A stretch of DNA of 64,000 bases from the NCBI GenBank assembly GCA_965658655.1, contig CBFHTA010000001.1:178507-242506 (forward strand). Direction: 5' to 3'. This stretch comes from Candidatus Babelota bacterium. Lineage in GTDB: Bacteria > Babelota > Babeliae > Babelales > CAIQNR01. The translations under genes were made by a program, and so were the position numbers. The notes under the pieces are model-generated. The model saw only the letters and a list, made by a program, of their open reading frames with translations. It did not search any database and was not told where the DNA came from. Below are positions 1 to 59,655 of this stretch, piece by piece (position 1 is the first letter of the stretch; every line of letters begins with the position of its first letter).

Positions 1-807
1 ATCAATGGTGGTGCGCATGCTAATAACGGTTTAGCTATTCAAGAGATTATGCTGGTGCCTGTTGGGGCTCAAAATTTTAGAATTTCTTTGGAATATGCTC
101 TTACGGTGTTCCATGAATTAAAAAAGATTTTGATCAAAAATAACAAAGCTACAGGCGTGGGAGATGAAGGGGGCTTTGCTCCTTCCTTTGAAACGGTTTA
201 TGAGCCGTTTGATTACCTTTCTCAAGCACTTGAGAGTACCGGGCTGAAAGATTTTTTTGTTTTGGCTATTGATGTTGCGGCAAGTCAGTTTTATAACGCT
301 GAAAGCAAAACATATCAATGGGAAGGCAAGCAGTTGTCTTCAAAAGAAATGGTATCTTTCTATCAAAAACTTGCAGATACGTACCCTCTTTACTCTATAG
401 AGGACGGAATGGCAGAAGATGATATTGAGGGATGGAAAGAACTTTTTAATGCGCTTGGTGACAAACTACAAATTGTAGGGGACGATATTTTTGTTTCACA
501 AACTAAGCGAATCGCAAGCGGCTTTACTGAAGGCATCGCTAACGGAGTTGTTATAAAACCTAATCAAGTAGGTACAGTGTCTGAAGCATTGGAGGCTATT
601 ACATTGTGTCATGCTGCCGGAGCGAATGTGGTTGTTTCTCATCGATCAGGAGAGACCAATGACGACTTCATTTCTGACTTAGCTGTGGGAACATCTGCAG
701 GGCAAATTAAGATTGGAGGGCCATGCCGAGGTGAACGGATGGCAAAATATAATCGACTTTTATATATTGAAGACATTCTTACAATGGGTCTTTTAGACGA
801 AGGCTAA
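1..807 (+). CDS. eno: Enolase, C-terminal part (5' end outside the window)
   Basis: Frame 1 is open from nt 1 (INGGAHANNGLAIQEIMLVP...) and runs into ORF 49..807. SHRSGETNDDFISDLAVG and IKIGGPCRGERMAKYNRLL are the enolase C-terminal barrel signatures. Confidence 0.95.
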   Translation: MNGGAHANNGLAIQEIMLVPVGAQNFRISLEYALTVFHELKKILIKNNKATGVGDEGGFAPSFETVYEPFDYLSQALESTGLKDFFVLAIDVAASQFYNAESKTYQWEGKQLSSKEMVSFYQKLADTYPLYSIEDGMAEDDIEGWKELFNALGDKLQIVGDDIFVSQTKRIASGFTEGIANGVVIKPNQVGTVSEALEAITLCHAAGANVVVSHRSGETNDDFISDLAVGTSAGQIKIGGPCRGERMAKYNRLLYIEDILTMGLLDEG

Positions 808-3440
808 ACTGCAGGAGCCGCCAAAGACGAGAAGAGGTTTTTAAGTTCATCTTCTTCAGAGAGAGCAATTTTTACAGGCTTCTTTGTTATTTTTGGTGTA
901 GGTTTTTCTGTTTGGGCAATGTATATTTTCTTAGCCGGACGATCTACTTTTATAAACTCTTCTATAGCTTTTTCTTCTGGAGTTTTTTCAGAATTTTTTA
1001 CTGGTGGCGGAGCGATATATGATGCTGTTTTCATAATAGATTGTTGGTCAATTTTTTTGTTTGGATCAACAGTAATATTTCTTACTCCCACTTTCTTTTT
1101 ATCGGCATAGTAATCTGCAGATGAAGAGTACATTTTTGTTTCTTTGAAAGCATTTATTCGTTTTGAGGCAATATCATGACTTGAAGATCCAAAGAACCAG
1201 CGCGTAATAGGGTCTTTGAGCGTATCGAAATTTTCTCCATCAACTAATATTTTGTTCATAGTGAGCATTTTATTTTTAGTGTAAGGGTCAAAGTATTTGT
1301 TGGGATCGGTATGAATAATGCGTGGGCACAAGAAGATTAAAAGATGCTCTTTGGTTGTTGCTTTTACTTTCTTTTTAAAGAGCCAACCAAAAATAGGTAT
1401 GTCTTTGAACCCAGGGGTTCCTATAATAGACTCAGAGATTTTTGTTTTGGTTAATCCCCCCAATACAAGCACTTCGCCGTCGTTAACATTTGCATTAGTT
1501 TGCAGGTTTCGGTTGAGAGTTTCTGTACTGGTTCCATATTCTTCTACTTTAATAGAGATTCCCATATTGATTTTTCCGCCATGACTAATAAGTGGCGTAA
1601 CGCTAATTCCTAGGGTGGCATTTTTACGAGTTTTTTGGTTAACCGTTCCGCCAAGTGAGGTAGTAGTGTCTCCATCCAAAAGACGAGAATCGGTTGAATA
1701 GAATGAACTGTTTTGATTGTTCATTGCCACAATGAAAGGTTGAGAAAGGACTTTAATGTCTTTAAAGCTGTTGAGTAGTTGTGTAACAAGCCACATGCCA
1801 TTGGTTGCCTTGTCTTTAAATGATATAAGAAGACTTCCTCCTTGAGCGCCGCTTAACAAGTTGCTTCCTGAAGCGTTTCCAAGTGTCGTTCCTGAAACAG
1901 CTGATTGGTCACTAGAAGCCATATTTAAAAGATTTGCACGTAGAGCTTCAGCTTGTTGAGCACCACTATTGCTGTTGTCTAAAACAATGCCACCAATATT
2001 AGATGTTTGAAAATTCGTATTTTTAAGACCAAGACCTTTTTTATTTCTCATTTGAGAGGCAAGTGATTGATCGCCTGTAATATTCAAATCTACAATGAGA
2101 GCTTCTATGGCAACTTGGAGCTGAGGCTTGTCTAATTCTTCGATAAGTTTTTTTATTCGGATCCAGTCTTGTCTTCGAGCTGCAATAATAAGCCGATTAG
2201 AAGTTTGCGGTGCTTGTTTAGGAGGAGGAGTAGATCCATTACTATTGTTTCCCCAGTAATTATTATTTACAGAGGAGCTTTGATTTTCTCCTCCTGCTTG
2301 TTCAGCTGCAACAATAACGCCTTGAAAATATTGCTCGCCGCTGTTGTTTTTGATTCCTCCAGAAGATTGGTTTCCATATGACCCTTGTTGTTGATTAGAA
2401 GAACTTACAATGTTTTGCAGGACGGGCTGAAACTCTTGAGCTTTTAAATATTGTAGGTCATAGATGTGTAAAACTGATTCACCTGTGTCTAGAGGAATAT
2501 CAATGTTTTTTTTGATAAAGTTTTTTGCTTGATCTAGTGCTGCTTTTTTTCCCATTAGAATAAGAGAGTTGGTTCGCATTTCAGCAACAATTCGAGTATT
2601 TTTTGCAAAGTATTGAGAAGCAGAGTCTTCTGGCCCCCCTTGAGGCTGGGCTCCGTATTGAGGTCTTTGAGGGGAGTTGGAGTTTATGAGTTCTTGAAAA
2701 AGTCGAGCAACAGTTTCTGCGGAAGTATGCTTGAGGTTTACAAAATCAATAGCGTCAGTAAATCCATGAGAATCAAGTTCGTTTATTACAAACATAGTAG
2801 CTGCAATGTTGCGAGCAAAGTCCGTGATGACTAATCCATTGCTTCCTGGATCCGTAACAATGGTTGCGTCTTTTGAGAGTAATGATTGAACTAAAGGCAT
2901 TATGCCTCCTTGACCACCGTCGCCAACTTGTAGGTTAGAGAAGTAATGAATGTAGCGAATTTTTTCATCGGTATCAGGAAGGTCCTCGGGTTTGACATGA
3001 AAGTAAAGAGGGTAAGGCTGTCTGTTTGCATCTCTGAATCGTTTAGGATCGGCTCCTGTTACAAAGTAAAAATCATTTTCTTTAGTTATTGTGTAGCCGC
3101 ATATTTTTAACACAGAAAGCATTCTACGCCATGCTTCTGTTAAAGTTATTTTTTCAGGGTACTGGAAGGTTAATTTGTTAACTACAGACTCTTTTCCTGC
3201 TGGTAATACGACATTAATGTTTTTACGTTTTGCGAGATCATTAATAATGTCTACAACAGGTTCGTCTTTGTATCGAAACCAAAATTTTTTTTCAGTCTTT
3301 TTTTTCTTTGAATGTGTTTTGTGGTTGTGTTTTGTAGCATGGGTTTGATGTTTATGATCAGCTTTTGTTTCTGCTTTCGTTGAAGAAGTAAACAATAGGG
3401 AGCACCCAAGCAACCATATGAAAAATGTTTGTTTGTTCAT
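804..3440 (-). CDS. Secretin (GspD/PilQ family), copy 2
   Basis: 878 aa. Signal peptide MNKQTFFIWLLGCSLLFTSSTKA and an N0-like segment (FRYKDEPVVDIINDLAKRKNINVVLP). C-terminal secretin core VLVLGGLTKTK...TPGFKDIPIFGWLFKKK...LLIFLCPRII. Lies directly after the pilM/N/O-like genes, which favours a PilQ-like role. Stop overlaps the eno stop convergently. Confidence 0.85.
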   Translation of the reverse strand: MNKQTFFIWLLGCSLLFTSSTKAETKADHKHQTHATKHNHKTHSKKKKTEKKFWFRYKDEPVVDIINDLAKRKNINVVLPAGKESVVNKLTFQYPEKITLTEAWRRMLSVLKICGYTITKENDFYFVTGADPKRFRDANRQPYPLYFHVKPEDLPDTDEKIRYIHYFSNLQVGDGGQGGIMPLVQSLLSKDATIVTDPGSNGLVITDFARNIAATMFVINELDSHGFTDAIDFVNLKHTSAETVARLFQELINSNSPQRPQYGAQPQGGPEDSASQYFAKNTRIVAEMRTNSLILMGKKAALDQAKNFIKKNIDIPLDTGESVLHIYDLQYLKAQEFQPVLQNIVSSSNQQQGSYGNQSSGGIKNNSGEQYFQGVIVAAEQAGGENQSSSVNNNYWGNNSNGSTPPPKQAPQTSNRLIIAARRQDWIRIKKLIEELDKPQLQVAIEALIVDLNITGDQSLASQMRNKKGLGLKNTNFQTSNIGGIVLDNSNSGAQQAEALRANLLNMASSDQSAVSGTTLGNASGSNLLSGAQGGSLLISFKDKATNGMWLVTQLLNSFKDIKVLSQPFIVAMNNQNSSFYSTDSRLLDGDTTTSLGGTVNQKTRKNATLGISVTPLISHGGKINMGISIKVEEYGTSTETLNRNLQTNANVNDGEVLVLGGLTKTKISESIIGTPGFKDIPIFGWLFKKKVKATTKEHLLIFLCPRIIHTDPNKYFDPYTKNKMLTMNKILVDGENFDTLKDPITRWFFGSSSHDIASKRINAFKETKMYSSSADYYADKKKVGVRNITVDPNKKIDQQSIMKTASYIAPPPVKNSEKTPEEKAIEEFIKVDRPAKKIYIAQTEKPTPKITKKPVKIALSEEDELKNLFSSLAAPAV

Positions 3441-3457
3441 AATTTTACCCCTTTATC

Positions 3458-4015
3458 CTACTGTTTTTTTTCAGCTTGAGCGATGAGTGTGGCAATTGTC
3501 AATGTAACCCCTATACTTGATCCTGGCATTTTTACAATAACCAGTTCTTTAGTATAGATGCGTCCCTTTTGCTCTATAATCTGCAAAAGTTCACAAAGTT
3601 GCTGAGTATTTATCTTTTGCAATGTTGCTTGTAATGTTACCTCAGTATAGCGTTTTTTTAATATTTCTTCAGTGGTTCGAGCTTCTCCTCTCAAATTTCC
3701 CGAGAGGCGGAGTCTCTTGAGGCAGTCTTCAAAAAAATTTTTAATTCTAAAGTTTTTATCTTGTTCTAAGAGTGCATTAATTTCTTCGCTTTGTTTTTGT
3801 ACATTTTTAAGACGCCCTAAAAGTTCTTTTGCTTGACGTTCTTGTTTATAGATTTCACGAAGTGCTCCCTGCAGACGTCGTACTCTTGTAAAATAAAACC
3901 ACATGCTGCCAGTTACGATCAATACCATTAAACCAATAAAAAGCGCACTGTTTCGGTAAAATTCACTTGTATCAAATGAGGTAAACCGCCCTCTTATTTT
4001 TTGGAGAAGAGTCAT
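3458..4015 (-). CDS. PilO/GspM-like bitopic inner-membrane protein
   Basis: 185 aa. One N-proximal TM helix (ALFIGLMVLIVTGSMWFYF), then a coiled coil and a small C-terminal domain. 4-nt overlap with the upstream gene. Located between the PilM/N-like gene and a secretin. Assigned from architecture and context only. Confidence 0.4.
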   Translation of the reverse strand: MTLLQKIRGRFTSFDTSEFYRNSALFIGLMVLIVTGSMWFYFTRVRRLQGALREIYKQERQAKELLGRLKNVQKQSEEINALLEQDKNFRIKNFFEDCLKRLRLSGNLRGEARTTEEILKKRYTEVTLQATLQKINTQQLCELLQIIEQKGRIYTKELVIVKMPGSSIGVTLTIATLIAQAEKKQ

Positions 4016-5472
4016 GAGAGGTCTCCTTTGCTGGCAATAGGGAGTATAAGCGGACTAAAGGTGATTTGTTGTAGAAGAGGTACATCAGAAAAAAGTTGTG
4101 TTTCTTTGAGTTGTTTTTCAAATTCATCAATGGCTTCAAAGTTACGAACTTTACCATCAAGCGTTACAGTCCCTTTACTGATCACCATTTTGTTAAGTTC
4201 TAATCCAAGGACTTCTCGATCAACTTTAGTGCTTAAATCAAGTAAATACCGAAGAAATGAGTGACGAGTTTGGCTTGAGAATGAATACCAAATAACTTCT
4301 TCTTTTTCGATTTGTTTGCGTGCGTTTTTAACGGCTTCTTTAAGTGATTTTCCTTTGATACCAGCAAAATTTTTCTTAAGATCTGAATGAGCACGCTTTT
4401 TTGCTTTTTCCGCGATAGAGGACAGATTTTGAATTTGTAAAAAAGTGTGAATAGAAAGGGAAGCGGCAATTGCTACGCTTAATAGTATGCCCGTAATAAA
4501 TTGACTGTTAAAGCGTTCTTGGTGTCGAGAAGTTGACTCGTCCATTAAAAGGTTGAAGTCAGCGGAAATTTCAGAAGGATATGCTGCAGCTACGCTTAGA
4601 AGGTCTAGTGCATTGTGCGTGGTAGGGAAAGGGACTTTAGCAGTTGTTAAAGAAGCTTCGAGCTTAAAAAATTCACAAGGGAGCCCGAGAGCCGTTTTTA
4701 TTTTTGTTAAGAATCCATCAGGTGCGGCACCCATTATAAGGACTTTTTTTAACGGGCCTTCTTCTTGGATAAAAGAATTAAGTGTAAAGTTTGTTTTCTG
4801 AAGACCGTCGCTATCTGTATCAAGATTCTTTTGAAGTGTTCGTATTTTTTTTAAAGCACCATTTTTAATGTAGGCAATATGAGTTCTTTCCTCATCGAGC
4901 ACTACGAGGGCAACAGTATGTTTATTGTTAATAGAGGTAATGCTTTTGTACAACCCAAAAATATTAATAATATCTACAGAAACGGCATCAAGAGGTAGAT
5001 TTGCTTTGGCAAAGCGCCCTACATGCTCGGCAATATATTTTTTTTGAATAGCTGTGACTAAGATAGAAGTTGTTTTTGTAGTGGCGTCTTCTTTGGTAAT
5101 GATAAAGTCTATGTTTGCCTGATCTATTGGAAACGGCAAGTAAGGTTCAAGTTCAAAATTAAGAACGAGCGCTATTTTTTCTTCTCCAATAATAGGGAGC
5201 GTAAGTTCTTTAAAAATGATAAAAGAGCTGTCTATTGTTGTTGTTACAGCATTATAGTTTTTTATTTGTCCCATTATTTTGGATAAAGCTGGGACAATCT
5301 GTTCAGGTTTTTCTATGGGTTCTTTATAAGCATTTTTAATTGATCTCTTGTTTCCTTGGGCTACTATTACAGTTGCGTACACGGCATTTTTGGTAACGTG
5401 GATGCCGACTATTTTTTTGCTAAAAAGAAAATACGACCCTATGCGTTCAGGGAAAAAAAGGTTTTTTATCAT
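4012..5472 (-). CDS. PilM-PilN fusion / GspL-like assembly-platform protein
   Basis: 486 aa. The N-terminal ~330 aa resemble the actin-like PilM/GspL cytoplasmic domain (KKIVGIHVTKNAVYATVIVAQG...). A TM helix (FITGILLSVAIAASLSIHTFL) and a ~130-aa periplasmic tail follow. 4-nt overlaps at both ends. Confidence 0.55.
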   Translation of the reverse strand: MIKNLFFPERIGSYFLFSKKIVGIHVTKNAVYATVIVAQGNKRSIKNAYKEPIEKPEQIVPALSKIMGQIKNYNAVTTTIDSSFIIFKELTLPIIGEEKIALVLNFELEPYLPFPIDQANIDFIITKEDATTKTTSILVTAIQKKYIAEHVGRFAKANLPLDAVSVDIINIFGLYKSITSINNKHTVALVVLDEERTHIAYIKNGALKKIRTLQKNLDTDSDGLQKTNFTLNSFIQEEGPLKKVLIMGAAPDGFLTKIKTALGLPCEFFKLEASLTTAKVPFPTTHNALDLLSVAAAYPSEISADFNLLMDESTSRHQERFNSQFITGILLSVAIAASLSIHTFLQIQNLSSIAEKAKKRAHSDLKKNFAGIKGKSLKEAVKNARKQIEKEEVIWYSFSSQTRHSFLRYLLDLSTKVDREVLGLELNKMVISKGTVTLDGKVRNFEAIDEFEKQLKETQLFSDVPLLQQITFSPLILPIASKGDLS

Positions 5473-8210
5473 CCTTTGAACTTCTTTTTCTTAGAGGATT
5501 TGCGTGTAATCTTTGCAACTTTTCTCTTTTTCTTCTTTTTGCTTTTTTTGGATGGAGAGTTTTGATTTATAAACTCTTCCACCTGTTTGACCGTTTCATC
5601 GTGTCCGCTTCCGCTAAAGAAAAGACTGTTAATAGGATCTTTTCCTGAAATATCATGAGTTCCAGAGTGGCGAGAAAGAGCGGCAGTAACGTTGGCTTTT
5701 TTCTTCATATATTCTGTGGTTGTTGCTTCCATGCCAGGGTAGATAATTTGTGGAGAGATAAAGATAAGCACATTTGATTGAACCTTTCCTTTAGATTTAG
5801 ATTTAAAGAGCCAACCAAGGCCAGGAATATCTCCTAAAAGAGGAGTCTTTCTTACTATTTGAGTAACCTTGTTTTTTACAATTCCACCGAGTACAAGCAC
5901 TTCTCTGTTTTGAACGGTGGCGGCTGTGGTGACAGTCTTTACGGTTTTGTCTCCGCTCGACACATTGGCGCTTGAGTAATCTTGAATGCTAATATTGATA
6001 GCCATTTGAATGGAGCCGTCAGAACTGATCTGAGGGGTAATTGTTACCTCTAAGTTTGCTTGATCTGCACTGTAACCGGTTTGTGTTTGGCCGCTTCCTT
6101 GTACCGTACTGGTTGCAATGTTTCTTGTGCTTCCTAAGGTCACCTGAGCTTGATAGTTGTTGGTTGCAAGCAAGAATGGATTTGAGATAACATCTGTTTT
6201 AGCAGTTTGCTGAAGTATGCTCATAATTCCCCATACACCGGTATTATTGTTTCCTACAGAAAGAACAGTAGACCCGGTTGCGGCAGAAGAGGCAAGGCTA
6301 ATTAGGTTCCCCAGCAAGCTTCCATTTGCGGCATTTACCACACCGCCAAAGTTACCACCAGAGGTAGGAAGCCCTGTACTTTGAAAGTCTACATTCTTAA
6401 TTAAACTATCAGTAGACTTGTTTCTTATTTGTGTTCCCAAGATCTTATCGTCACTGGTTGTTACATCGACAATAAGTACTTCAATAATAGTTTGCGGTTG
6501 AACAATATCAAGCTTCTTAATTATATCAACAAGTTTAATATAATCATTTTCTTCGGCTTTAATAATCAGTCTATTTCCGCTGATATCTGGAGTTATCGTC
6601 ATTGGCCCAAAATATTGATTACCATCCCTCACTCCTCCATAACTAGCGGCAGGAGTGCCCGCTCCAAATTTTGTTGCTGTCTGGTTTAAAATTTGTGCAA
6701 TATTTTTTGCTTGTGTGTATTGTAATTCATAGATGTGCAATGGAGAATAAGGCATGTCTAAGTCAACATCTACATGTTTAATAATAAACTCTTCAATTTT
6801 CACAAGCGCAGCTTTGGGCCCAAGAAGAATCAGTGAGTTTGTTCGCGGCTCTGGAATAATACGAGCGTTTGCAGGGAAGTAAAGAGATTTTGGTTGATTG
6901 CGTTGGGTCATGAAACGAGCAGCGCCTTTGGGAGCTTCTGCTCGAGTAAGTACATCATAAAGTTTGGCAACTTCTTCAGCATCAGATTTTTTAAGTTTTA
7001 ACACAGACATTGCTTCTGGCATTTCTTTATCGAACTCTTGCACAATGTACATGAGAGAGCGGACGTTAGATCCTTTATCCGTAATGATGAGCGCATTAAG
7101 GTCTGGGAACGTTAGGATAGGTCCCGCAGATGAGCTCGAGAACGCTTTCACTACTTCTTGAATAGTTCCTAGAGGTGAATTTTTTACGAAAAAGACATAA
7201 CGAACTTTAGTGCTGTTGTTTGGAATATCGTCTATTTTAGTGTTAAAGAATGTTGGAAGAACTTCTTTATTGGCGCTTGTTAATGTTGTAATACGGTAGA
7301 AGACAGTTTTTTTGTGAGGCTTGTTTGGGTCGCTATGCTCTGTTTTGGAGGAATCACCTTCACCAGGTATAACGGTGAGTCCTGCCATATCTAAGAATTT
7401 CAAGAAGAGATTCCAGGCCTCGGCACGCGTTAAAGGTTTATTGGTGGTAAAGGTAATGCGATGACCTTTAAGAACAGCTCCTCCGTGAGGGGTAGGGTTA
7501 AGGTCGTCATCAGCGAAGAACTTAACATCATAAAGCTCTTCCATATAACGCACTAAGCTCTCTAGTGTGGCATCTTCAAAGTAGAAGCGCACCATTTGGT
7601 GTTCTTTTTCTTCCTGTTCTAATTTTTCTTGAAGACGCTTCTCTTCGGCCTGAGTAGGTTTAGGTTTACCGTCTTCTTTTTCTTTGTGATGCTCACTGAG
7701 CTTGTCTTTCTTTTTCTTTTCGTCCGTGTTATTTTTTTCACTCAGCTTTTCTTTTTCTTCTTTTTTCTTAGGCTCAGGGACCTTAACTTTCCCTTCTAAA
7801 GCTCCTTTATCTAAGGCTGGAGGCGCAGGAACCTGAGGAATTGTCACAGATCCAATTTTTTCTGTTTTAATTTTAACAGGAGTTTCTGTGTGTTCTATCT
7901 CTTTTTTATTGCTTTCTTTAACCGGTGAAGGCTCGTCCTTTTGTGCTTCCCCTTCATCATCATCTAGTAAATGCTTGGAAGGCTTAGGAGGCACTGGTAG
8001 TTCTGTGTGAGCAGGAGTTAGTGTCTGGTGTTGAACGGAAGGAGGAGCTTCTGAGGAGTTTTTCCCTATGGCAGATAAATCGATTGGAGTCGAATCTTTT
8101 TTAGGCATGTTAGACAGAATGCCACGCTGAGCAAAAACATTTTGCGGAGCACAACACAGGGCCCCTAATATGAGAATAAAAATGTATTGTTTGTTCTTTT
8201 TTTTATTCAT
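5469..8210 (-). CDS. Secretin (GspD family), copy 1, with a long K/E/P-rich N-terminal region and a poly-lysine tail
   Basis: 913 aa. Signal peptide (ILILGALCCAPQNVFA) and an N0-like segment (VRFYFEDATLESLVRYMEELYDVKF). Secretin core REVLVLGGIVKNK...TPLLGDIPGLGWLFKSKSK...VLIFISPQII. Directly downstream of the GspC-like gene. Confidence 0.85.
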   Translation of the reverse strand: MNKKKNKQYIFILILGALCCAPQNVFAQRGILSNMPKKDSTPIDLSAIGKNSSEAPPSVQHQTLTPAHTELPVPPKPSKHLLDDDEGEAQKDEPSPVKESNKKEIEHTETPVKIKTEKIGSVTIPQVPAPPALDKGALEGKVKVPEPKKKEEKEKLSEKNNTDEKKKKDKLSEHHKEKEDGKPKPTQAEEKRLQEKLEQEEKEHQMVRFYFEDATLESLVRYMEELYDVKFFADDDLNPTPHGGAVLKGHRITFTTNKPLTRAEAWNLFLKFLDMAGLTVIPGEGDSSKTEHSDPNKPHKKTVFYRITTLTSANKEVLPTFFNTKIDDIPNNSTKVRYVFFVKNSPLGTIQEVVKAFSSSSAGPILTFPDLNALIITDKGSNVRSLMYIVQEFDKEMPEAMSVLKLKKSDAEEVAKLYDVLTRAEAPKGAARFMTQRNQPKSLYFPANARIIPEPRTNSLILLGPKAALVKIEEFIIKHVDVDLDMPYSPLHIYELQYTQAKNIAQILNQTATKFGAGTPAASYGGVRDGNQYFGPMTITPDISGNRLIIKAEENDYIKLVDIIKKLDIVQPQTIIEVLIVDVTTSDDKILGTQIRNKSTDSLIKNVDFQSTGLPTSGGNFGGVVNAANGSLLGNLISLASSAATGSTVLSVGNNNTGVWGIMSILQQTAKTDVISNPFLLATNNYQAQVTLGSTRNIATSTVQGSGQTQTGYSADQANLEVTITPQISSDGSIQMAINISIQDYSSANVSSGDKTVKTVTTAATVQNREVLVLGGIVKNKVTQIVRKTPLLGDIPGLGWLFKSKSKGKVQSNVLIFISPQIIYPGMEATTTEYMKKKANVTAALSRHSGTHDISGKDPINSLFFSGSGHDETVKQVEEFINQNSPSKKSKKKKKRKVAKITRKSSKKKKFKG

Positions 8211-8212
8211 AC

Positions 8213-9340
8213 TTACGATTCTTTAGGTAGTGAAAAATCTTTTAACTTCCCTGCTTTTCCTTCAGCAAGCATTTTTTTTCTTTGGTCAATCATTATTTCT
8301 TGAGCAGTTGGTGCGAAAGCATAGTGTTCTTTGAGGGTTGCCATGCGCTCGCGCTCCAGTTCTTCTTCGCTCGGTCCTTTAAGGATACTGTCTTCTTCTT
8401 CGTTTTTGGTTTTGGTTTTTTCGATACCAAAACTGTGTATCTTAAAGTTAAGCGTGAGGACTTTCCCTTCGTGAGTTATCGATGCTTGGAAGGATTCGCC
8501 TGCTTTAAGATCAATTAATTTATTATAAATATTGAGCCGCTCGTTGGTGGTTGTTGCTGGAATTCCGGCTACCTTGTTGATGATACTATACGATTCGAGT
8601 CCCATTGCTGCCCCTAATGAGTTGTGTGCTATTTTCCCTATTCGACACCCTACGCTCTTACCTTCTTTGTATACAGTCGTTAAATCGAACATGTCAATAA
8701 AGTGTGCAAGACTTGGCACTAGGTCGGCGAATGCTTTAGGGTCGATAGCGAAACTATGGTCACCGGTTTTTCTCATCACGTGTTCCCAGTCATCTTCGTC
8801 TTCTATAAGAGCAGGGTCGGCGCTTGCAGCTCTCTCGTTAATGAACAATGTTTCTTGTTGTCCATTAGATCGTATTAGTACAACTTTATTTTGTAAAATA
8901 CGCACAACTTGTGCGTCTTCTATTGGGTCTCCAACCTTGTAATTCTCGTCCTTTTTCGTTTTATTGTCGGCAATAACTGCAATGTTATTACTTTCGTCGC
9001 TCAAAAGCATGACCCCCTTCAGTGTGACTTCAAGCGGCGACAAGAATGGTTGTTTGGGTTCCTCAGGAATATGAACAGTAGTTGGTCCAGGAGGTTGAGG
9101 AATTGGTTTTGCGTAATCAGGCTCTACCGGTGGAGCTACTTTTTTATGAAAAGTGTTAAACAAGTCGTTATCATAAATATGTGCAATATTAATTGCTGCC
9201 ACACGTGGTGCAGCAACAGATTGCTTAGAGCCTGTCTTTTTGGGTTTAGGAATGCTTGGCCTGGAGAAGGCTACAAAGCCTAAGCAGACTATAAATAAAA
9301 GCAAGAGCGAACTGTTAACGATCCAGAACGGGTGTCTCAT
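8213..9340 (-). CDS. GspC-like protein (TM anchor + HR-like + PDZ-like domains)
   Basis: 375 aa. N-terminal TM (FWIVNSSLLLLFIVCLGFVAF). HR-like segment NYKVGDPIEDAQVVRILQNKVVLIRSNGQQETLFI. PDZ-like segment GCRIGKIAHNSLGAAMGLESYSIINKVAGIP. Immediately upstream of a secretin, as in gspC-gspD operons. Confidence 0.6.
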   Translation of the reverse strand: MRHPFWIVNSSLLLLFIVCLGFVAFSRPSIPKPKKTGSKQSVAAPRVAAINIAHIYDNDLFNTFHKKVAPPVEPDYAKPIPQPPGPTTVHIPEEPKQPFLSPLEVTLKGVMLLSDESNNIAVIADNKTKKDENYKVGDPIEDAQVVRILQNKVVLIRSNGQQETLFINERAASADPALIEDEDDWEHVMRKTGDHSFAIDPKAFADLVPSLAHFIDMFDLTTVYKEGKSVGCRIGKIAHNSLGAAMGLESYSIINKVAGIPATTTNERLNIYNKLIDLKAGESFQASITHEGKVLTLNFKIHSFGIEKTKTKNEEEDSILKGPSEEELERERMATLKEHYAFAPTAQEIMIDQRKKMLAEGKAGKLKDFSLPKES

Positions 9341-9429
9341 AAAAATTCCTTTTTAGCATTCTATGGACACGATACCCATTTCCATTATGTGTTGTCAAGT
9401 CTAGAGCCTTCTATAAAGGGTTTTGATAT

Positions 9430-10422
9430 TTAGGGGGACGGAACCGTAGATAATATTTTCTGGATAACCATGTCTGTCTTAACATCTTCGGCTTCGGCTT
9501 CATAAGAAAGTAGTAAGCGGTGACGCAGTACAGCTGGGGCAATAGCTTTTACATCATCTGGAATAACAAAGTGGCGAGCTTTTAAAAATGCGTGAGCCCG
9601 CGCTGCGTGGTGTAATGCAAGTGTTGCCCGGGGAGAAACACCGTACTGAATATAGTTTGCTACATCATGGAGCTTGTACTCTTTTGGATTTCGTGTAGCA
9701 AAGACAAGTTCAACAATATAGTCTTTAATTTTATCGTCCACGTACACTTTTTGTACGAGTTCTTGCGCTTCGAAAATATCTTCTTTCTTAACAACCTGTT
9801 TTATTTGGTCAAGGTTAAAGCTTTTGTTTAAGATTTCTTTCTCATGTTTTTTTTCTGGGTACTTAACTTCAAGTTTAAACATGAACCGGTCAACTTGAGC
9901 TTCGGGTAATCTATAAGTTCCTTCTTGCTCGATTGGGTTTTGTGTTGCAAAGACTAAGAATGGTAGATCGAGTGGAAATGTTTCAGAACCGATGGTTACC
10001 TGGCGCTCTTGCATTGCTTCAAGAAGTGCGGCTTGAACTTTTGCTGGAGCACGGTTAATTTCATCTGCCAAAATTAAGTTGGCAAATATAGGCCCTTTTT
10101 TTGTAGAGAAAGATTGAGTCTTTGGATTGTAGATTAAGGTTCCAATGAGATCTGCGGGTAATAAGTCTGGAGTGAACTGAATCCGAGAAAACCCTAAGCC
10201 AAGAGCAGTGTTCATTGCTTTAATCATGGTAGTTTTAGCAACACCGGGAACACCTTCTAGTAAAATGTGGCCATTGCTCAAGATTGCTAACTCTATAAAG
10301 GTGATAATGTCTTGTTGTCCTACAATAACATTTGCAACTTCGCTTGATAGAATGTTGAAAAGTGCGCTTTTTTCTTTTATTGCTTCTATGGTTTGGTTAT
10401 CAAAAGTGTTTTTGGTAGCCAT
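9430..10422 (-). CDS. MoxR-family AAA+ ATPase
   Basis: 330 aa. Walker A in ILLEGVPGVAKTT and Walker B in ILADEINRAPAKVQAALLEAMQERQVTI. Conserved tail SPRATLALHHAARAHAFLKARHFVIPDDVK. Confidence 0.9.
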   Translation of the reverse strand: MATKNTFDNQTIEAIKEKSALFNILSSEVANVIVGQQDIITFIELAILSNGHILLEGVPGVAKTTMIKAMNTALGLGFSRIQFTPDLLPADLIGTLIYNPKTQSFSTKKGPIFANLILADEINRAPAKVQAALLEAMQERQVTIGSETFPLDLPFLVFATQNPIEQEGTYRLPEAQVDRFMFKLEVKYPEKKHEKEILNKSFNLDQIKQVVKKEDIFEAQELVQKVYVDDKIKDYIVELVFATRNPKEYKLHDVANYIQYGVSPRATLALHHAARAHAFLKARHFVIPDDVKAIAPAVLRHRLLLSYEAEAEDVKTDMVIQKILSTVPSP

Positions 10423-56056: not shown

Positions 56057-57271
56057 ATGGCTCTGTATACGTATCAAGCATTTTCTCGGGATGGCAAGAA
56101 AGCTAGCGGGCAGATTGATGCTCCTTCATCAGGAGGTGCACGAGAATTATTGCAACGCAAAGGGCTTCTTCCTATTTCTATAGTTCCTGCAGCTCAAGCG
56201 GCACAAAAAGAATCTTTTTTTCAGCGGATTTTTTCTCGATCCGTTTCCCTGAAAGATAAAATTCTATTTACTAAACAGTTATCTGTACTTTTAAAATCTG
56301 GTATTCCCCTTCTTGCTTCTATCGAATTACTTCAAGATCAATTTGAAGGAAAAATGCATAGGGTGTTAATAACGCTTAAAGATGGTCTGAAAGAAGGACA
56401 ATCTTTGGCCGATGGTATGAAACAGTATCCTCACATTTTTGAGAACATCTACGTACAACTTGTGCGAGCAGGTGAAGCAAGTGGCCGGTTAGAAGTTATC
56501 CTAGAACGGTTGACCGAATTTTTAGAGCGAAGAGAAGAGATTCAAAAGAAAGTAAGTAGTGCGTTGCGGTATCCACTTATTCAATTAGTACTTGTGAGTT
56601 GTGTAGTTGCTGGGCTTATGACTTTTGTTGTTCCTAAATTGGCCGGAGTGTTTGCCGATCAGGGTGGCTCGCTTCCTTTACCAACTCAAATTCTTATGAC
56701 CATTTCTGATTTCTTTGTATATCACTATGGAATTCTTTTGGTGTCATTGATTAGTTCAATACTCCTTTTTTCTTATTGGAGTTCGACTCCCTCAGGAGCA
56801 CTCTTGATGGATCGTATTAAGTTACGTTTGCCAATTATAAAGTTATTTACTCGTATAGGAGCAATTGTTCAGTTTTCTAAAACGCTTGGAATGCTCTTAG
56901 AAGGAGGTGTTAATCTATCTCAATCGCTCGATATTGTATGTAGCATTGTAGATAATAGAGTATTGAAAAAAGCATTAGAAGAAGCGCGAGAAAAAATCAT
57001 TAAAGAAGGTAAGATTTCTCAGTATTTAAAACAAACCAACATTTTTCCTCCTATGGCTATTTATTTGATTCGCACAGGTGAAGAAAGTGGAAACTTGGAT
57101 ACTATGTTATTGAGTGTTGGTAAAACTTTCGAAGAAGATCTGTCTGAGTTAGCAGATACTTTGACAACGTTATTGAATCCTATTATTACTGTAGTTATGT
57201 CGTTGATTATTGGGTTTATTGTTATGGCAATTGCGCTTCCAATAATGAGTATGGGTAACTTAGTAATGTAA
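56057..57271 (+). CDS. gspF: Type II secretion / type IV pilus platform protein GspF/PilC
   Basis: 404 aa. Two GspF repeats (FTKQLSVLLKSGIPLLASIELL; FSKTLGMLLEGGVNLSQSLDIV) and three TM segments. Confidence 0.9.
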   Translation: MALYTYQAFSRDGKKASGQIDAPSSGGARELLQRKGLLPISIVPAAQAAQKESFFQRIFSRSVSLKDKILFTKQLSVLLKSGIPLLASIELLQDQFEGKMHRVLITLKDGLKEGQSLADGMKQYPHIFENIYVQLVRAGEASGRLEVILERLTEFLERREEIQKKVSSALRYPLIQLVLVSCVVAGLMTFVVPKLAGVFADQGGSLPLPTQILMTISDFFVYHYGILLVSLISSILLFSYWSSTPSGALLMDRIKLRLPIIKLFTRIGAIVQFSKTLGMLLEGGVNLSQSLDIVCSIVDNRVLKKALEEAREKIIKEGKISQYLKQTNIFPPMAIYLIRTGEESGNLDTMLLSVGKTFEEDLSELADTLTTLLNPIITVVMSLIIGFIVMAIALPIMSMGNLVM

Positions 57272-57276: not shown

Positions 57277-57714
57277 ATGAAAGGTATAAGTATGACTTCA
57301 AGTCTACAAAAAGGCTTTAGCTTGATGGAAATTATGATTGCCGTTGCAATCATGGGTATATTGGCTGGTGTTGGTATTCCAATGTATTCTTCTTATTTAA
57401 AAAATGCACGTATGAAAAGAACAGAAGGCACACTTGCACTCTTTAAAAATGAAATCAATCGGTATAATGCCGATACAGGTCGATATCCTCGTGCCTTAGA
57501 TGATCTTGTTGATAAACCAGATGCTGACAGTCCCTTAGCGAAGAAATGGCAAGGACCATACATTGATGTAAAGGGTGGAGGATTGCCAGAAGACGCTTGG
57601 GGACAAGATTTTATGTATGAATTAACGCCTGGAGGTGCGCATCCATATGAACTTTACTCTTATGGGCCTGATGGTGAAGATGCCCCAGAAGAAGACAGGA
57701 TTAGTGCCTGGTAA
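57277..57714 (+). CDS. gspG: Major pseudopilin GspG
   Basis: 145 aa. Prepilin leader and cleavage motif QKG|FSLMEIMIAVAIMGILAGV. C-terminal DAWGQDFMYELTPGGAHPYELYSYGPDG is typical of GspG. Confidence 0.9.
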   Translation: MKGISMTSSLQKGFSLMEIMIAVAIMGILAGVGIPMYSSYLKNARMKRTEGTLALFKNEINRYNADTGRYPRALDDLVDKPDADSPLAKKWQGPYIDVKGGGLPEDAWGQDFMYELTPGGAHPYELYSYGPDGEDAPEEDRISAW

Positions 57715-58279
57715 CACAAAACCCGGATTTGGATTATTCGAGTTTTTAGTTGCGCTGGCAATATTGGGAGGATTGGCGTCTGTCGCTGTTCCCAATTATT
57801 TACGACAGCAAGCTGGTTATGAACGTAAAAAATTCGTAACCAGCCTTAATGCTTTAATGAGCGAAGTTTTCCAACTCGGGCTTATGAACGAAAAAATAGA
57901 ACGCGTAAAGTTCAATCTAAAGCAGCGAAGTGTAGCAGTAGAGCAAGAAACAGGCTTGTATACCGACGAAGGCTCAAAGGTCTTTAAACCTATTGTGCTG
58001 CACTATGTTGATACTAAGTATCGTTGGCCAGAAGCATTTGATTTTAAACAGTTTTTTGTAAAGCGTAAGGATGAAATGCTCGCTCGTGGAGCGCATGGTG
58101 AGACAGATGAAGTATGGTTTTATGTAATGCCTTCGGGAATGGCACAAGAAGTTATTATTAACATTCTTGATACTAAGGATCAGTCGGTTGATAAAGACGG
58201 GACTGAAATAAGTTTGGTGCTGAATCCGTTTACCTTACAGTTTAGGAGGTATGATGAATTTCAAATTCCATCAGCGTAA
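57680..58279 (+). CDS. Minor pseudopilin, GspH-like
   Basis: Prepilin motif KPG|FGLFEFLVALAILGGLASV with Glu at +5. The start is uncertain (ATG 57680 or GTG 57704, both inside the gspG 3' end). Assigned by position after gspG. Confidence 0.6.
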   Translation: MPQKKTGLVPGNTKPGFGLFEFLVALAILGGLASVAVPNYLRQQAGYERKKFVTSLNALMSEVFQLGLMNEKIERVKFNLKQRSVAVEQETGLYTDEGSKVFKPIVLHYVDTKYRWPEAFDFKQFFVKRKDEMLARGAHGETDEVWFYVMPSGMAQEVIINILDTKDQSVDKDGTEISLVLNPFTLQFRRYDEFQIPSA

Positions 58280-58676
58280 CGGCTTTGCGCTTATGGAGGT
58301 CATGCTTGCTTTAGCCACTATTGGTATTTTATTAACTACGTTTATGATGGTGCAGACTAAAGTATTTAAGAATACCATGACAAGTTCTTTTCGTATTGAT
58401 CGTTTTTATCATATTAAAAATATGTTTTTTGTTGTAAAAATAAAACCACTAGAAGATGAACAAACGGTTAGAGAACAAACAATTCAAGACCCTGCAATAA
58501 AGCTTCGTTACCATAAAAAGCCTGTTAATCCTAAGTCTGAACTGGCCCGCTTTACGGGTCTATTTCAAGAAGTGGCAACAGGAGAGTGGTATGAATGGGG
58601 CAAAGACAAAGAGTATGACATTATAAGTTATCAATTTGATCCGCCTAAGAAGGAAGGAAAAGATGAAGCTTCGTAA
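58251..58676 (+). CDS. Minor pseudopilin, GspI-like
   Basis: 141 aa. AGGAGG Shine-Dalgarno. Prepilin motif QRNG|FALMEVMLALATIGILL. Assigned by size and order. Confidence 0.55.
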   Translation: MMNFKFHQRNGFALMEVMLALATIGILLTTFMMVQTKVFKNTMTSSFRIDRFYHIKNMFFVVKIKPLEDEQTVREQTIQDPAIKLRYHKKPVNPKSELARFTGLFQEVATGEWYEWGKDKEYDIISYQFDPPKKEGKDEAS

Positions 58677-59655
58677 TGGATTTGCTCTCTTAGAAGTTTT
58701 GTTTGCTATGATTATTGGGTCAATGTTGTCCTTTATATTGTTTCAAAGTATAGGGTCGATGAGTAAAACTTATCAAAAAATTTATTCTGTTTCTTCTGTG
58801 CAGCGGCGGTTTACTTTAGTTCAGCAGCAGTTTGAACGAGACTTCTCTGGGGTTACTGCACCAAAAATTAGTTTACAAGATGAACGTGATCCAAATAAAA
58901 AAGAAAAATCTGGTGACGACAAAAAAGAAGAAAAAAAAGCAGAAGTAAAAAGCGGTAAAGAAAAACCTAAAGAAAAAATATATCGAGTTCCTCACGTATT
59001 TTTTTCTAAAAATGACACTAATGGTAACTGTGTAGAACTTACCTGCTTAACAACTAATCCTATAACCATGTATGGGCAACAAACGCCGCGGTTGGTACGA
59101 GTTGTTTACAGGTTGGAGCCAGATCCTGAACATAAAGGGCTCTGGCTATTAGCGCGTCAGCAGTCTGACAACCTTGATTTTGAGGCCTTTTCAGAAAAAG
59201 CCAAAGATGTTGTGAGGAAATTCACTATTTCTGATGGTATTGAGAAATTAAAAATTTCATTCTTGATTTCTCAAAAACCAGAAAAAGAATCTAAGTCGCT
59301 AACAGAAGAAAATAAAAAGTTAGCCAAAAAAGAAAAAAAGAAAAACGTTAAAGAAAAGAGAGAGTTTAAAGAAGTAAAAGATTGGCCTTATTTTGAAAAT
59401 GAAGAAGAAGAGAAAAAAAGTAAACGTCCTTCTTATCCTACCCTTATTAAAGTTGAGATGACTTTCATTGATGAACAAAAACGGCCATCAAGTTTTGTAG
59501 TATGGTACGCGCCGCTTTATGATTTGGAACCAACATTTGTTGATAAGTCTGCAACACTACCATCGATGAGTGAGATGTACCATCAACGTTTCACTGAACA
59601 GCAACAGCGGAATATGCAAGGAATGCAATATTCAATGAGGAAGCGTAATGGTTAA
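58663..59655 (+). CDS. Minor pseudopilin, GspJ-like, with K/E-rich insertions
   Basis: Start at the ATG at 58663 (MKLRNG|FALLEVLFAMIIGSMLS). Low-complexity inserts KKEKSGDDKKEEKKAEVKSGKEKPKEK and KKLAKKEKKKNVKEKREFKEVK. Assigned by order. Confidence 0.5.
   Translation: MKLRNGFALLEVLFAMIIGSMLSFILFQSIGSMSKTYQKIYSVSSVQRRFTLVQQQFERDFSGVTAPKISLQDERDPNKKEKSGDDKKEEKKAEVKSGKEKPKEKIYRVPHVFFSKNDTNGNCVELTCLTTNPITMYGQQTPRLVRVVYRLEPDPEHKGLWLLARQQSDNLDFEAFSEKAKDVVRKFTISDGIEKLKISFLISQKPEKESKSLTEENKKLAKKEKKKNVKEKREFKEVKDWPYFENEEEEKKSKRPSYPTLIKVEMTFIDEQKRPSSFVVWYAPLYDLEPTFVDKSATLPSMSEMYHQRFTEQQQRNMQGMQYSMRKRNG

What the first reader, a model, noticed from the sequence alone, without database searches (positions are those of the whole stretch)
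804..9340. Single operon with two secretin genes: gspC-like, secretin 1, pilM/N-like fusion, pilO-like, secretin 2
Five tightly packed minus-strand genes, with overlaps at 5469-5472 and 4012-4015, contain two full-length secretins of 913 and 878 aa. Secretin 1 follows a GspC-like TM+HR+PDZ protein, which is the T2SS pairing. Secretin 2 follows a PilM-PilN-like fusion and a PilO-like protein, which is the order of the type IVa pilus pilMNO(P)Q alignment operon. So either T2SS and T4P outer-membrane modules have been fused into one transcription unit, or one machine uses two different secretins. The two secretins are paralogs beyond the core. After the secretin domain both carry KDPI(T/N)(R/S)(W/L)FF(G/S)(S/G)S(S/G)HD.
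Basis: partly seen in the sequence, partly recalled or inferred. Interest (0 to 1): 0.65.

Follow-up and report, generated by a model that had tools for sequence, protein, structure and literature searches.

The report
Dependentiae secretion operon with two secretins
A parasitic bacterium of the phylum Dependentiae (TM6) carries one tightly packed operon for the envelope-spanning part of its only secretion machine, and that operon holds two intact, anciently duplicated outer-membrane channel genes; the double copy was reported for the phylum in 2016, and its purpose is still unknown.

Summary
Five minus-strand genes (804-9340) lie 2 and 17 nt apart or overlap by 4 nt. They encode GspC, secretin 1 (913 aa), a PilM-PilN fusion (486 aa), a PilO/GspM-like protein (185 aa) and secretin 2 (878 aa).

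Both secretins are intact, with the GspD domain layout. They are 31% identical over about 710 aa and share a C-terminal [RK]DP[IV]xxWFF motif.

The window comes from a Candidatus Babeliales (Dependentiae/TM6) genome. The same five-gene order recurs in all 14 related loci long enough to show it. Both secretins have dN/dS of about 0.1. In a neighbour-joining tree the two paralogs form one clade (100% bootstrap) apart from proteobacterial GspD, HofQ and pIV.

This argues for an old duplication within the lineage, not a fusion of separate T2SS and T4P outer-membrane modules. The PilMN fusion and the PilO-like protein are this machine's GspL and GspM equivalents. gspF-G plus four pseudopilin-type ORFs lie 47 kb away.

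Yeoh et al. 2016 already reported two gspD copies and no pilQ in all TM6 genomes. The new points are the operon layout, the single origin of the paralogs and the shared motif.

The best reading is one T2SS-like machine serving two paralogous secretin channels. What each channel does is not resolved.

The parts
9369..9398 (-). Sigma-70-like promoter candidate (TTGACA, 18-nt spacer, TATCGT) in the 89-nt gap between the MoxR gene and gspC
   Evidence: It is the joint top-scoring match in 1-10600, at 10 of 12 positions. The sequence was read, which also shows an AGGA ribosome-binding site before the ATG. It is only a consensus match: the region holds 24 such sites against 20.5 expected by chance.
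8213..9340 (-). gspC-like gene (375 aa): N-terminal transmembrane segment, HR region and PDZ-like C-terminal part
   Evidence: Pfam T2SSC scores 39.3 bits (cutoff 27) over residues 31-166. NCBIfam GspC_delta scores 79 bits (below its cutoff of 150) over residues 36-302. DegP/PDZ-type matches cover 221-335. The ortholog in L002 carries a faint PDZ_2 hit.
5469..8210 (-). Secretin 1 (913 aa): signal peptide, a roughly 180-aa K/E/P-rich extension, then N0, three Secretin_N domains, the secretin domain and a C-terminal tail
   Evidence: Pfam Secretin scores 120.6 bits and Secretin_N matches three times. NCBIfam GspD scores 275 bits (cutoff 351) against 157 for PilQ. The best PDB match is GspD 5wq7, E = 6.5e-38. 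The pre-N0 extension is 206 aa including the signal peptide.
5598..5642 (-). Conserved post-secretin motif in secretin 1 (KDPINSLFFSGSGHD)
   Evidence: Translation. The core [RK]DP[IV]xxWFF is conserved in nearly all aligned Sec1 and Sec2 orthologs and is absent from E. coli GspD, EtpD, HofQ, pIV and two alphaproteobacterial GspD.
4012..5472 (-). PilM-PilN fusion (486 aa) with GspL architecture: cytoplasmic actin-like domain, a long helix containing the membrane segment, and a small periplasmic alpha/beta domain
   Evidence: Pfam PilM_2 scores 41.2 bits and PilN matches weakly. Among 24 family members, 23 hit PilM_2, 10 hit T2SSL and 7 hit PilN. The family profile hits PDB PilM at E = 1.2e-31 and no GspL. 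The AF2 model has pLDDT 81.8. Foldseek ranks PilM first (1.2e-19), then FtsA, then EpsL/GspL cytoplasmic domains (2.2e-11).
3458..4015 (-). PilO/GspM-like bitopic protein (185 aa): transmembrane helix, coiled coil and a ferredoxin-like domain
   Evidence: Sequence matches are only weak: NCBIfam GspM E = 0.0036, and Pfam T2SSM in 5 of 11 orthologs, best E = 0.0064. The AF2 model has pLDDT 79. Foldseek top hits are PilO 3jc8_Oa (2.6e-4) and 2rjz (3.2e-4, TM 0.61); PulM 7ze0 scores E = 0.06.
804..3440 (-). Secretin 2 (878 aa): signal peptide, short extension, N0, three Secretin_N domains with a Q/N/G/S-rich insert, the secretin domain and a roughly 130-aa tail
   Evidence: Pfam Secretin scores 109.8 bits and Secretin_N matches three times. 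NCBIfam GspD scores 264 bits against 153 for PilQ. The best PDB match is GspD 5zdh, E = 4.7e-27. An AAAGGGG ribosome-binding site lies within the 17-nt gap before its ATG.
1173..1217 (-). Conserved post-secretin motif in secretin 2 (KDPITRWFFGSSSHD)
   Evidence: Translation; conservation shown.
56057..57271 (+). gspF (inner-membrane platform protein), part of the same machine but 47 kb away
   Evidence: Pfam T2SSF matches twice, 193 bits. NCBIfam GspF scores 368 bits, above PilC at 305.
57277..57714 (+). gspG (major pseudopilin)
   Evidence: NCBIfam TIGR01710 GspG scores 92.5 bits, above its cutoff of 88.85. Pfam T2SSG scores 66.8 bits, with an N_methyl match.
57635..60721 (+). Four further ORFs. 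Three (214, 141 and 339 aa) have prepilin-type N-termini and are GspH/I/J-like minor pseudopilins. The last (357 aa) sits in the GspK position but has no family hit.
   Evidence: N_methyl / IV_pilin_GFxxxE matches, plus a weak GspJ match (E = 0.0099). The annotated start of the first ORF overlaps gspG and is probably too far upstream.

Best explanation
The locus encodes the envelope-spanning scaffold of a single type II secretion-like machine (type IV filament superfamily) in a Dependentiae bacterium.

One transcript probably starts at a promoter upstream of gspC and is translated with tight coupling. It yields:
- GspC, the inner-membrane linker whose HR domain docks on a secretin N0 domain;
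- a PilM-PilN fusion that plays the GspL role, tethering the ATPase and reaching into the periplasm;
- a PilO-like partner that plays the GspM role;
- two paralogous GspD-type secretins.

The platform and pseudopilus genes gspF-G plus four minor-pseudopilin-type ORFs lie 47 kb away. gspE lies outside the window.

The two secretins arose by one duplication, probably before the sampled Babeliales diverged. Both have since been kept intact under similar purifying selection.

I infer that each forms its own homo-multimeric outer-membrane channel and that both channels are served by the same inner-membrane platform. The channels would be specialised for different cargo, life stages or fibre/DNA passage.

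Shown: gene content, domain layouts, paralogy, conservation and selection. Inferred: the single transcript, the shared platform, separate homo-multimers and the division of labour.
For: - **Gene layout and domains:**
- **Spacing and signals:** the junctions leave no room for internal signals, and a promoter-like site lies upstream of gspC.
- **Conserved operon:** the same five-gene order, with -4 overlaps at the same junctions, occurs in all 14 related loci that are long enough. PilMN identity falls as low as 26-28%. The flanking MoxR and convergent enolase genes are also conserved.
- **Single origin of the secretins:** Sec1 and Sec2 are monophyletic at 100% bootstrap. Without the two deepest genomes, each paralog clade has 88-100% support.
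- **Both GspD-like:** both score best on the GspD profile and on solved GspD structures.
- **Shared S-domain-like motif:** both carry the C-terminal motif.
- **Selection:** dN/dS is 0.104 for Sec1 and 0.085 for Sec2, in line with the other operon genes at 0.086-0.111.
- **Machine components:** only one gspF and one gspG cluster occur in the window.
- **Homology of the parts:** PilMN corresponds to GspL, PilO to GspM, and PilP to the GspC HR domain (PMC4471445).
- **Only secretion system:** the T2SS is the only secretion system found in Babela (PMC4378268).
- **Precedent (own knowledge; only the title was seen):** in P. aeruginosa the XphA/XqhA GspC/D pair can work with the Xcp machine.
Against: - There is no expression or protein evidence. 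The single transcript is inferred from spacing alone.
- gspE, prepilin peptidase and any pilB/pilT lie outside the window. I could not show that the genome has only one ATPase/platform set.
- The PilMN and PilO-like proteins are closer to T4aP proteins than to GspL/GspM in both sequence and predicted fold. The gene order PilMN-PilO-secretin 2 mirrors pilMNO(P)Q.
- There is only one GspC for two secretins, whereas the Pseudomonas precedent supplies a second GspC.
- Strict co-operonic retention fits obligate co-assembly as well as it fits alternative channels.
- The tree uses few outgroups, all proteobacterial or phage, and neighbour joining only.
Confidence: 0.55

Rival explanations
1. Secretin 2 substitutes for PilQ. 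The PilMN, PilO-like and secretin 2 genes would form the alignment and outer-membrane part of a type IV pilus or DNA-uptake fibre. gspC and secretin 1 would serve protein secretion, so two functions share one operon. This is the suggestion of Yeoh et al. 2016.
For: - The order PilM/N, PilO, secretin mirrors pilMNO(P)Q.
- The 486-aa and 185-aa proteins are nearer to PilM and PilO than to GspL and GspM.
- pilQ is absent from TM6 genomes, while T4P assembly genes are annotated (PMC4776705; PMC6561590).
- The Dependentiae secretin clade groups with HofQ rather than with proteobacterial GspD plus pIV, at 88-98%.
- A ComEC gene lies near the operon in three loci.
Against: - The HofQ affinity applies to both paralogs together, not to secretin 2 alone.
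- Secretin 2 has the GspD layout with N0 and three N-domains and no AMIN hit. It scores 264 bits on GspD against 153 on PilQ.
- There is no PilP gene.
- If PilMN and PilO belonged to a pilus, the T2SS would have no GspL/GspM. tblastn with E. coli GspL and GspM found none in the window or in about 10 kb of flank around related loci, though this search has low sensitivity.
- Only one gspF/gspG cluster is seen.
- No pili were seen on Babela (PMC4776705).
- ComEC adjacency is not general.
Confidence: 0.2
2. The two secretins must assemble together. They would form a mixed ring, or two stacked or nested rings, making one composite conduit. This could be an adaptation to the unusual envelope of these bacteria, since no LPS synthesis genes were found in Chromulinavorax.
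For: - Both genes are retained in one translationally coupled operon in every locus examined, with no case of loss.
- Selective constraint on the two is nearly equal.
- Both share a lineage-specific C-terminal motif in the S-domain position, which in GspD contacts the neighbouring subunit or a pilotin (the S-domain role is from established knowledge).
- Sec1 and Sec2 differ systematically in pre-N0 extension length and core length, so they are not interchangeable copies.
- There is only one GspC.
- LPS genes are absent in Chromulinavorax (PMC6561590).
Against: No natural hetero-oligomeric or double secretin is known (own knowledge). At 29-33% identity across the ring-forming domains, quasi-equivalent packing in one ring is unlikely. 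Co-operonic retention also fits alternative channels.
Confidence: 0.15
3. One copy is a redundant or decaying duplicate with no distinct role.
For: Duplicated secretins in other bacteria can be cryptic or partly redundant (own knowledge, for example E. coli K-12 gspD, annotated as cryptic).
Against: Both ORFs are intact in all loci across a divergence where orthologs share only about 30-40% identity. dN/dS is about 0.1 for both. Both keep full domain sets. These are reduced genomes of roughly 1-2 Mb (chromosome-level records of 1.20-1.87 Mb), where useless genes of about 2.7 kb are unlikely to persist.
Confidence: 0.03

Closest known systems
Two gspD copies in all candidate phylum TM6 (Dependentiae) genomes (Yeoh et al. 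2016, Mol Biol Evol, PMC4776705)
   Same: It is the same phylum and the same feature: two GspD-type secretin genes, no pilQ, T2SS components and possible T4P components in every genome. The paper left open whether one copy replaces PilQ.
   Different: The text I could read reports gene content only, and its supplementary table was not available. The points added here are:
- both copies sit in one five-gene operon flanking the PilMN and PilO-like genes;
- the paralogs form one clade;
- both share a C-terminal motif;
- both are under equal purifying selection.
Classical proteobacterial T2SS (gspC-D-E-F-G-H-I-J-K-L-M, e.g. E. coli Gsp, Klebsiella Pul, Vibrio Eps)
   Same: - GspC with an HR region and a PDZ-like region.
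- A secretin with N0-N3 and the secretin domain.
- GspF, a GspG major pseudopilin and minor pseudopilins.
- An L-type bitopic protein with a cytoplasmic actin-like domain, and an M-type partner.
   Different: - There are two secretins instead of one.
- The L equivalent is a full-size PilM-like domain fused to a PilN-like domain. The M equivalent is closer to PilO.
- The genes are split over at least three loci. Legionella lsp genes are split in a similar way (own knowledge).
- Identity to proteobacterial GspD is only about 21% in the aligned core.
- The secretins carry long disordered N- and C-terminal extensions and a lineage-specific C-terminal motif.
Type IVa pilus alignment/secretin operon pilMNOPQ (P. 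aeruginosa, M. xanthus; E. coli hofMNOPQ)
   Same: The order is actin-like PilM, PilN, PilO, then a secretin. The best sequence and fold matches of the 486-aa and 185-aa proteins are PilM and PilO. The hofMNOPQ layout was seen.
   Different: - PilM and PilN are fused.
- There is no PilP gene.
- The secretin has three N-domains and no AMIN hit, and scores below the PilQ cutoff and below its own GspD score.
- A GspC and a second secretin precede the set.
- A GspG-type pseudopilin passes its equivalog cutoff.
XphA/XqhA, an alternative GspC/GspD pair that works with the Xcp T2SS of P. aeruginosa (Michel, Durand & Filloux 2007; only the title was seen in the reference list of PMC4404142; details from own knowledge)
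   Same: It is a precedent for one inner-membrane T2SS platform using two different secretins.
   Different: In Pseudomonas the second secretin has its own GspC, lies in a separate locus and is conditionally expressed. Here there is one GspC and both secretins are in the same operon.

Membership tests
Type II secretion system (Gsp) | GspD-type secretin: N0 plus N1-N3 ring domains plus the C-terminal secretin domain | tested here: met
   Both ORFs have the Pfam Secretin domain (120.6 and 109.8 bits), three Secretin_N matches and an N0 match. GspD is the best NCBIfam family for both, at 275 and 264 bits, but both fall below the equivalog cutoff of 351. The best PDB hits are GspD.
Type II secretion system (Gsp) | GspC: a bitopic protein with an HR domain plus a PDZ or coiled-coil domain, encoded next to gspD | tested here: met
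   Pfam T2SSC scores 39.3 bits against a cutoff of 27. GspC_delta scores 79 bits (below its cutoff of 150) across the HR and PDZ region. The gene lies 2 nt upstream of secretin 1.
Type II secretion system (Gsp) | GspL: cytoplasmic actin-like domain, one transmembrane segment and a periplasmic ferredoxin-like domain | tested here: inconclusive
   The architecture is met (AF2 model). By sequence and fold, however, the protein is nearer to PilM (PDB profile E = 1.2e-31, no GspL hit; Foldseek PilM 1.2e-19 against EpsL 2.2e-11). Ten of 24 family members also hit Pfam T2SSL.
Type II secretion system (Gsp) | GspM partner protein | tested here: inconclusive
   Only weak T2SSM/GspM sequence hits were found. 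The predicted fold matches PilO best (E = 3e-4) and PulM weakly (E = 0.06). GspM and PilO are structural homologs (PMC4471445).
Type II secretion system (Gsp) | GspF platform, GspG major pseudopilin and GspH-K minor pseudopilins | tested here: met
   GspF scores 368 bits (best family, below its cutoff of 424). GspG scores 92.5 bits, above its cutoff of 88.85. Three prepilin-type ORFs and one unassigned ORF in the K position follow.
Type II secretion system (Gsp) | GspE assembly ATPase and prepilin peptidase present; no PilT retraction ATPase | not testable with these tools
   None of these is in the window. None is in the roughly 10-kb flanks of related loci (tblastn with E. coli GspE and GspO). 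Whole genomes could not be fetched.
Type IVa pilus PilMNOPQ module | PilQ secretin with N-terminal AMIN domain(s) and a short N0-N1 periplasmic part | tested here: not met
   Pfam gives no AMIN hit at E <= 1 for either secretin. Both have three Secretin_N domains. The PilQ model scores 157 and 153 bits against a cutoff of 284, below the GspD score for both.
Type IVa pilus PilMNOPQ module | PilP lipoprotein encoded between pilO and pilQ | tested here: not met
   The PilO-like gene and secretin 2 are separated by 17 nt in the window, and by -4 to 17 nt in the 10 related loci measured. The only HR-domain protein is GspC, at the head of the operon.
Type IVa pilus PilMNOPQ module | Separate PilM (actin-like), PilN and PilO proteins | tested here: inconclusive
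   PilM-like and PilN-like parts are present but fused into one 486-aa protein. The fusion is conserved family-wide: 739 cluster representatives at E <= 1e-30, and nearly all of the top 150 are about 490-570 aa. The PilO-like fold is present.

The most novel reading that the evidence does not exclude
The two co-transcribed secretin paralogs are both obligate parts of one conduit. They would form a mixed ring or two stacked rings held by the shared C-terminal DPIxxWFF motif. This would be the first natural two-secretin channel. It might be linked to the LPS-less outer membrane of Dependentiae or to delivering effectors across a host membrane.
Probability: 0.12. Interest if true: 0.8.

Novelty: new member of a known kind. 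Interest (0 to 1): 0.4.

Why it matters
Dependentiae are widespread obligate parasites of protists. Their T2SS-like machine is the only secretion system found in their genomes, so it probably exports the large set of ankyrin-repeat and other host-directed proteins.

A phylum-wide operon with two secretins, held under selection, bears on two open questions. The first is how one type IV filament machine can serve more than one outer-membrane channel. The second is how T2SS and T4aP diverged. Here a GspC/GspD/GspG-type system still uses PilM-, PilN- and PilO-like assembly proteins, with PilM and PilN already fused as in GspL.

The duplication itself is already in the literature. The value of this window lies in the operon-level detail and in the concrete tests it suggests. 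Those tests are feasible because Babela, Vermiphilus and Chromulinavorax can be grown in co-culture with their hosts.

Tried and rejected
- **Liposecretin idea.** Secretin 2 begins MNKQTFFIWLLGC, which resembles a lipobox. The cysteine is not conserved in orthologs, so I rejected this.
- **hhalign against single E. coli proteins.** I compared the family profiles with GspL, GspM, HofM, HofN and HofO. All probabilities were below 6%, so the result is uninformative. I replaced it with structure prediction and Foldseek.
- **PDB profile search with the 185-aa family.** No relevant hit.
- **First locus search.** The search for related loci with the 24-sequence alignment failed because it had no conserved stretch. 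It worked with 9 sequences.
- **Tree bootstrap.** The first run, using the Biopython BLOSUM distance, timed out. I redid it with my own Kimura-corrected distances.
- **Outgroups from plasmids.** This returned only proteobacterial GspD/EtpD at about 26% identity. No non-E. coli PilQ sequence was available, so the outgroup set is thin.
- **ComEC adjacency as a DNA-uptake hint.** It is present in only three loci, so I gave it no weight.
- **Supplementary table S5 of Yeoh et al.** Not held.
- **XphA/XqhA paper.** Not held.
- **Source names for the window proteins.** None were recorded.
- **Decaying-duplicate hypothesis.** Rejected on intact ORFs and dN/dS.
Full report
**1. The observation**

ORF listing reproduces the finding exactly. 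Five minus-strand ORFs lie at 8213-9340 (375 aa), 5469-8210 (913 aa), 4012-5472 (486 aa), 3458-4015 (185 aa) and 804-3440 (878 aa). There are 4-nt overlaps at 5469-5472 and 4012-4015, and gaps of 2 and 17 nt at the other junctions. The 17-nt gap before secretin 2 holds only a ribosome-binding site, AAAGGGG.

A TTGACA-18-TATCGT promoter-like site lies in the 89-nt gap upstream of gspC. It is the joint top-scoring match in the region. Promoter-like and terminator-like matches overall are no more frequent than in shuffled sequence. The single transcript is therefore inferred from spacing and is not shown.

**2. What the five proteins are**

- **Both large ORFs are intact secretins.** Each has a near-complete Pfam Secretin domain, three Secretin_N stretches and an N0 match.
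- **Both are most like GspD.** GspD is the best NCBIfam family (275 and 264 bits), with PilQ well behind (157 and 153 bits). Both match solved GspD rings better than PilQ rings. Sec1 gives 6.5e-38 against 4.5e-22, and Sec2 gives 4.7e-27 against 1.4e-15.
- **They are paralogs.** They are 31% identical over about 710 aa, from N0 to past the secretin domain.
- **The 375-aa protein is GspC-like.** It passes Pfam T2SSC and matches GspC_delta over the HR and PDZ region.
- **The 486-aa protein is a PilM-PilN fusion.**
  - Of 24 family members, 23 hit PilM_2, 10 hit T2SSL and 7 hit PilN.
  - The family profile hits PDB PilM at 1.2e-31 and no GspL.
  - An AlphaFold2 model (pLDDT 81.8) shows a roughly 300-aa actin-like domain, a long helix and a small alpha/beta domain.
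  - Foldseek ranks PilM first (1.2e-19), then FtsA, then EpsL/GspL cytoplasmic domains (2.2e-11).
- **The 185-aa protein has no significant sequence family.** Its model (pLDDT 79) is a transmembrane helix, a coiled coil and a ferredoxin-like domain. It matches PilO best (3e-4, TM 0.61) and PulM weakly.

The established view is that PilM plus PilN is the counterpart of GspL, PilO of GspM, and PilP of the GspC HR domain (Berry & Pelicic 2015, PMC4471445).

**3. The rest of the machine**

At 56057-60721 on the plus strand the window carries gspF, with GspF as the best family. Next comes gspG, which passes the GspG equivalog cutoff. Three prepilin-type ORFs and one unassigned ORF in the gspK position follow.

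No GspE, PilT or prepilin peptidase is in the window. None is in the flanks of related loci either.

**4. Organism and conservation**

Relatives of the 486-aa protein come from records titled Candidatus Babeliales. Secretin homologs are likewise named Babeliales or "general secretion pathway protein D". Neighbouring ankyrin-repeat arrays and chromosome-level records of 1.20-1.87 Mb fit Dependentiae/TM6.

All 14 related loci long enough to show the operon carry the same order: MoxR, gspC, secretin 1, PilMN, PilO-like, secretin 2, then a convergent enolase gene. These are 12 loci from the genome collection (one of which duplicates L002) and two from a deeper relative. In these loci PilMN identity to the window falls as low as 26-28%. 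The -4 overlaps recur at the same junctions.

The fused PilMN family is large. It has 739 cluster representatives at E <= 1e-30, and nearly all of the best 150 are about 490-570 aa long. The nearest homolog outside the family (P0036) lies in a conventional gspL-M-?-C-D cluster with a single secretin.

**5. Origin of the two secretins**

I built a neighbour-joining tree with 29 Dependentiae secretins. The outgroups were E. coli GspD, EtpD, two alphaproteobacterial GspD, HofQ (the E. coli PilQ ortholog) and M13 pIV. The tree used 632 trimmed columns, or a 311-column shared core.

- Sec1 plus Sec2 are monophyletic in 100% of 200 bootstraps.
- Each paralog clade is recovered in the best tree with weak support (16-58%), because two deep genomes (L017, L019) are unstable. 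Without them, support is 96-100% for Sec1 and 88-94% for Sec2.

| Comparison | Mean identity |
|---|---|
| Sec1 to Sec1 | 42% |
| Sec2 to Sec2 | 37.5% |
| Sec1 to Sec2 | 29% |
| Either to GspD or HofQ | about 21% |

The whole Dependentiae clade sits on the HofQ side of the split from proteobacterial GspD plus pIV (88-98%). This applies to both paralogs together and rests on very few outgroups.

This pattern points to one old duplication inside the lineage. It does not fit the union of a GspD with a PilQ of separate ancestry.

**6. Are both copies functional?**

- Both are intact in all loci.
- For the least saturated genome pair, dN/dS is 0.104 for Sec1 and 0.085 for Sec2. The other operon genes fall in the same range, 0.086-0.111.
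- Both keep a lineage-specific motif [RK]DP[IV]xxWFF about 35-45 residues after the secretin domain. This is the position of the GspD S-domain. The motif is absent from all the outgroups.
- Systematic differences exist. Sec1 usually has a longer disordered K/E/P-rich segment before N0, about 125 aa typically and 206 aa in the window. For Sec2 the figure is about 60 aa. Sec1 also has an NPxPxGG-type insertion in N0.
- Sec2 has a longer core, about 645 aa against 600.
- A lipobox-like start in the window's Sec2 is not conserved.

**7. Literature**

- Yeoh et al. 2016 (PMC4776705) state that pilQ is absent and that two copies of gspD were found in all TM6 genomes. They suggest one copy may replace PilQ, and note that no pili were seen on Babela.
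- Pagnier et al. 2015 (PMC4378268) found the T2SS to be the only secretion system in Babela.
- Deeg et al. 2019 (PMC6561590) suggest T4P proteins might assemble through "a derived pulD channel", and report no LPS genes.
- None of the text I could read describes the operon layout. The supplementary table of Yeoh et al. was not available.

**8. Interpretation**

The simplest account is one T2SS-like machine. Its C, L-equivalent and M-equivalent scaffold is co-expressed with two paralogous secretins, and both secretins are needed. I favour two separate homo-multimeric channels sharing one platform (confidence 0.55). The XphA/XqhA pair of P. aeruginosa is a precedent (title seen; details from my own knowledge).

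The PilQ-substitute idea keeps some weight (0.2). The scaffold proteins are T4aP-like, and I could not inventory the ATPases.

Obligate co-assembly of the two secretins (0.15) would be the most novel outcome. It fits the strict co-operonic retention and the shared tail motif, but has no precedent.

A decaying duplicate is effectively excluded.

**9. Novelty and score**

The double gspD of Dependentiae is already published as a gene-content observation. This window is a further member of that known kind.

What this analysis adds:
- the conserved operon architecture;
- the PilM/N/O-like nature of the L and M equivalents;
- the single origin of the paralogs;
- the equal selective constraint on both copies;
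- the shared C-terminal motif.

The function remains open and is experimentally tractable. Interest is 0.4.

Noticed in passing
window 9430-10422 (-): A MoxR-type AAA+ ATPase gene (AAA_3, AAA_lid_2) lies directly upstream of gspC, 30-130 nt away, in 14 of 15 related loci; L012 has a 2.6-kb insertion between them. The adjacency is as conserved as the operon itself. Its role is unknown, though a chaperone function for the machine is possible.
   Followed up: partly
window 20138-31076 (-): Three tandem giant ORFs (1397, 1054 and 1195 aa) overlap by 4 nt at their junctions, and none has a Pfam hit.
   Followed up: no
window 49696-53882 (+): Two adjacent ORFs of 978 and 412 aa have signal-peptide-like N-termini and no Pfam hit. 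They may be surface or outer-membrane proteins.
   Followed up: no
window 34667-35308 (-): A SET-domain protein, a eukaryote-like methyltransferase domain (68 bits). This fits a host-interacting parasite.
   Followed up: no
window 60738-62396 (+) and 11981-13533 (-): A 552-aa MlaD-domain protein follows the pseudopilin cluster directly. MlaE-like and MlaF-like genes lie near the secretin operon. In L027 the wider run TIM, SecG, MlaE, ABC ATPase, MoxR, gspC is also conserved.
   Followed up: partly
L004, L005, L007, L014, L016, L017 (record titles): Contigs carrying this Dependentiae-type operon are titled 'Alteromonas naphthalenivorans' or 'uncultured Pseudomonadota bacterium'. These are probably mis-binned or mislabelled MAG contigs.
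   Followed up: no
L027 16046-17230, L028 9628-10812, L019 about 15396-15911: A ComEC (Competence) gene lies just beyond the enolase gene downstream of secretin 2 in three loci. tblastn did not find it in the other loci.
   Followed up: partly
window 57635-58279 (+): The listed start of the first minor-pseudopilin ORF overlaps gspG by 80 nt. The prepilin motif (KPGFGLFEF) begins about 28 codons in, so the true start is probably further downstream.
   Followed up: no
L017 and L019, both secretins: In the two deepest genomes the N0 regions of Sec1 and Sec2 resemble each other more than in other genomes. L017 has the highest within-genome identity (0.349). The four sequences form their own clade in 15-30% of bootstraps. 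Partial gene conversion or a separate duplication cannot be excluded.
   Followed up: partly
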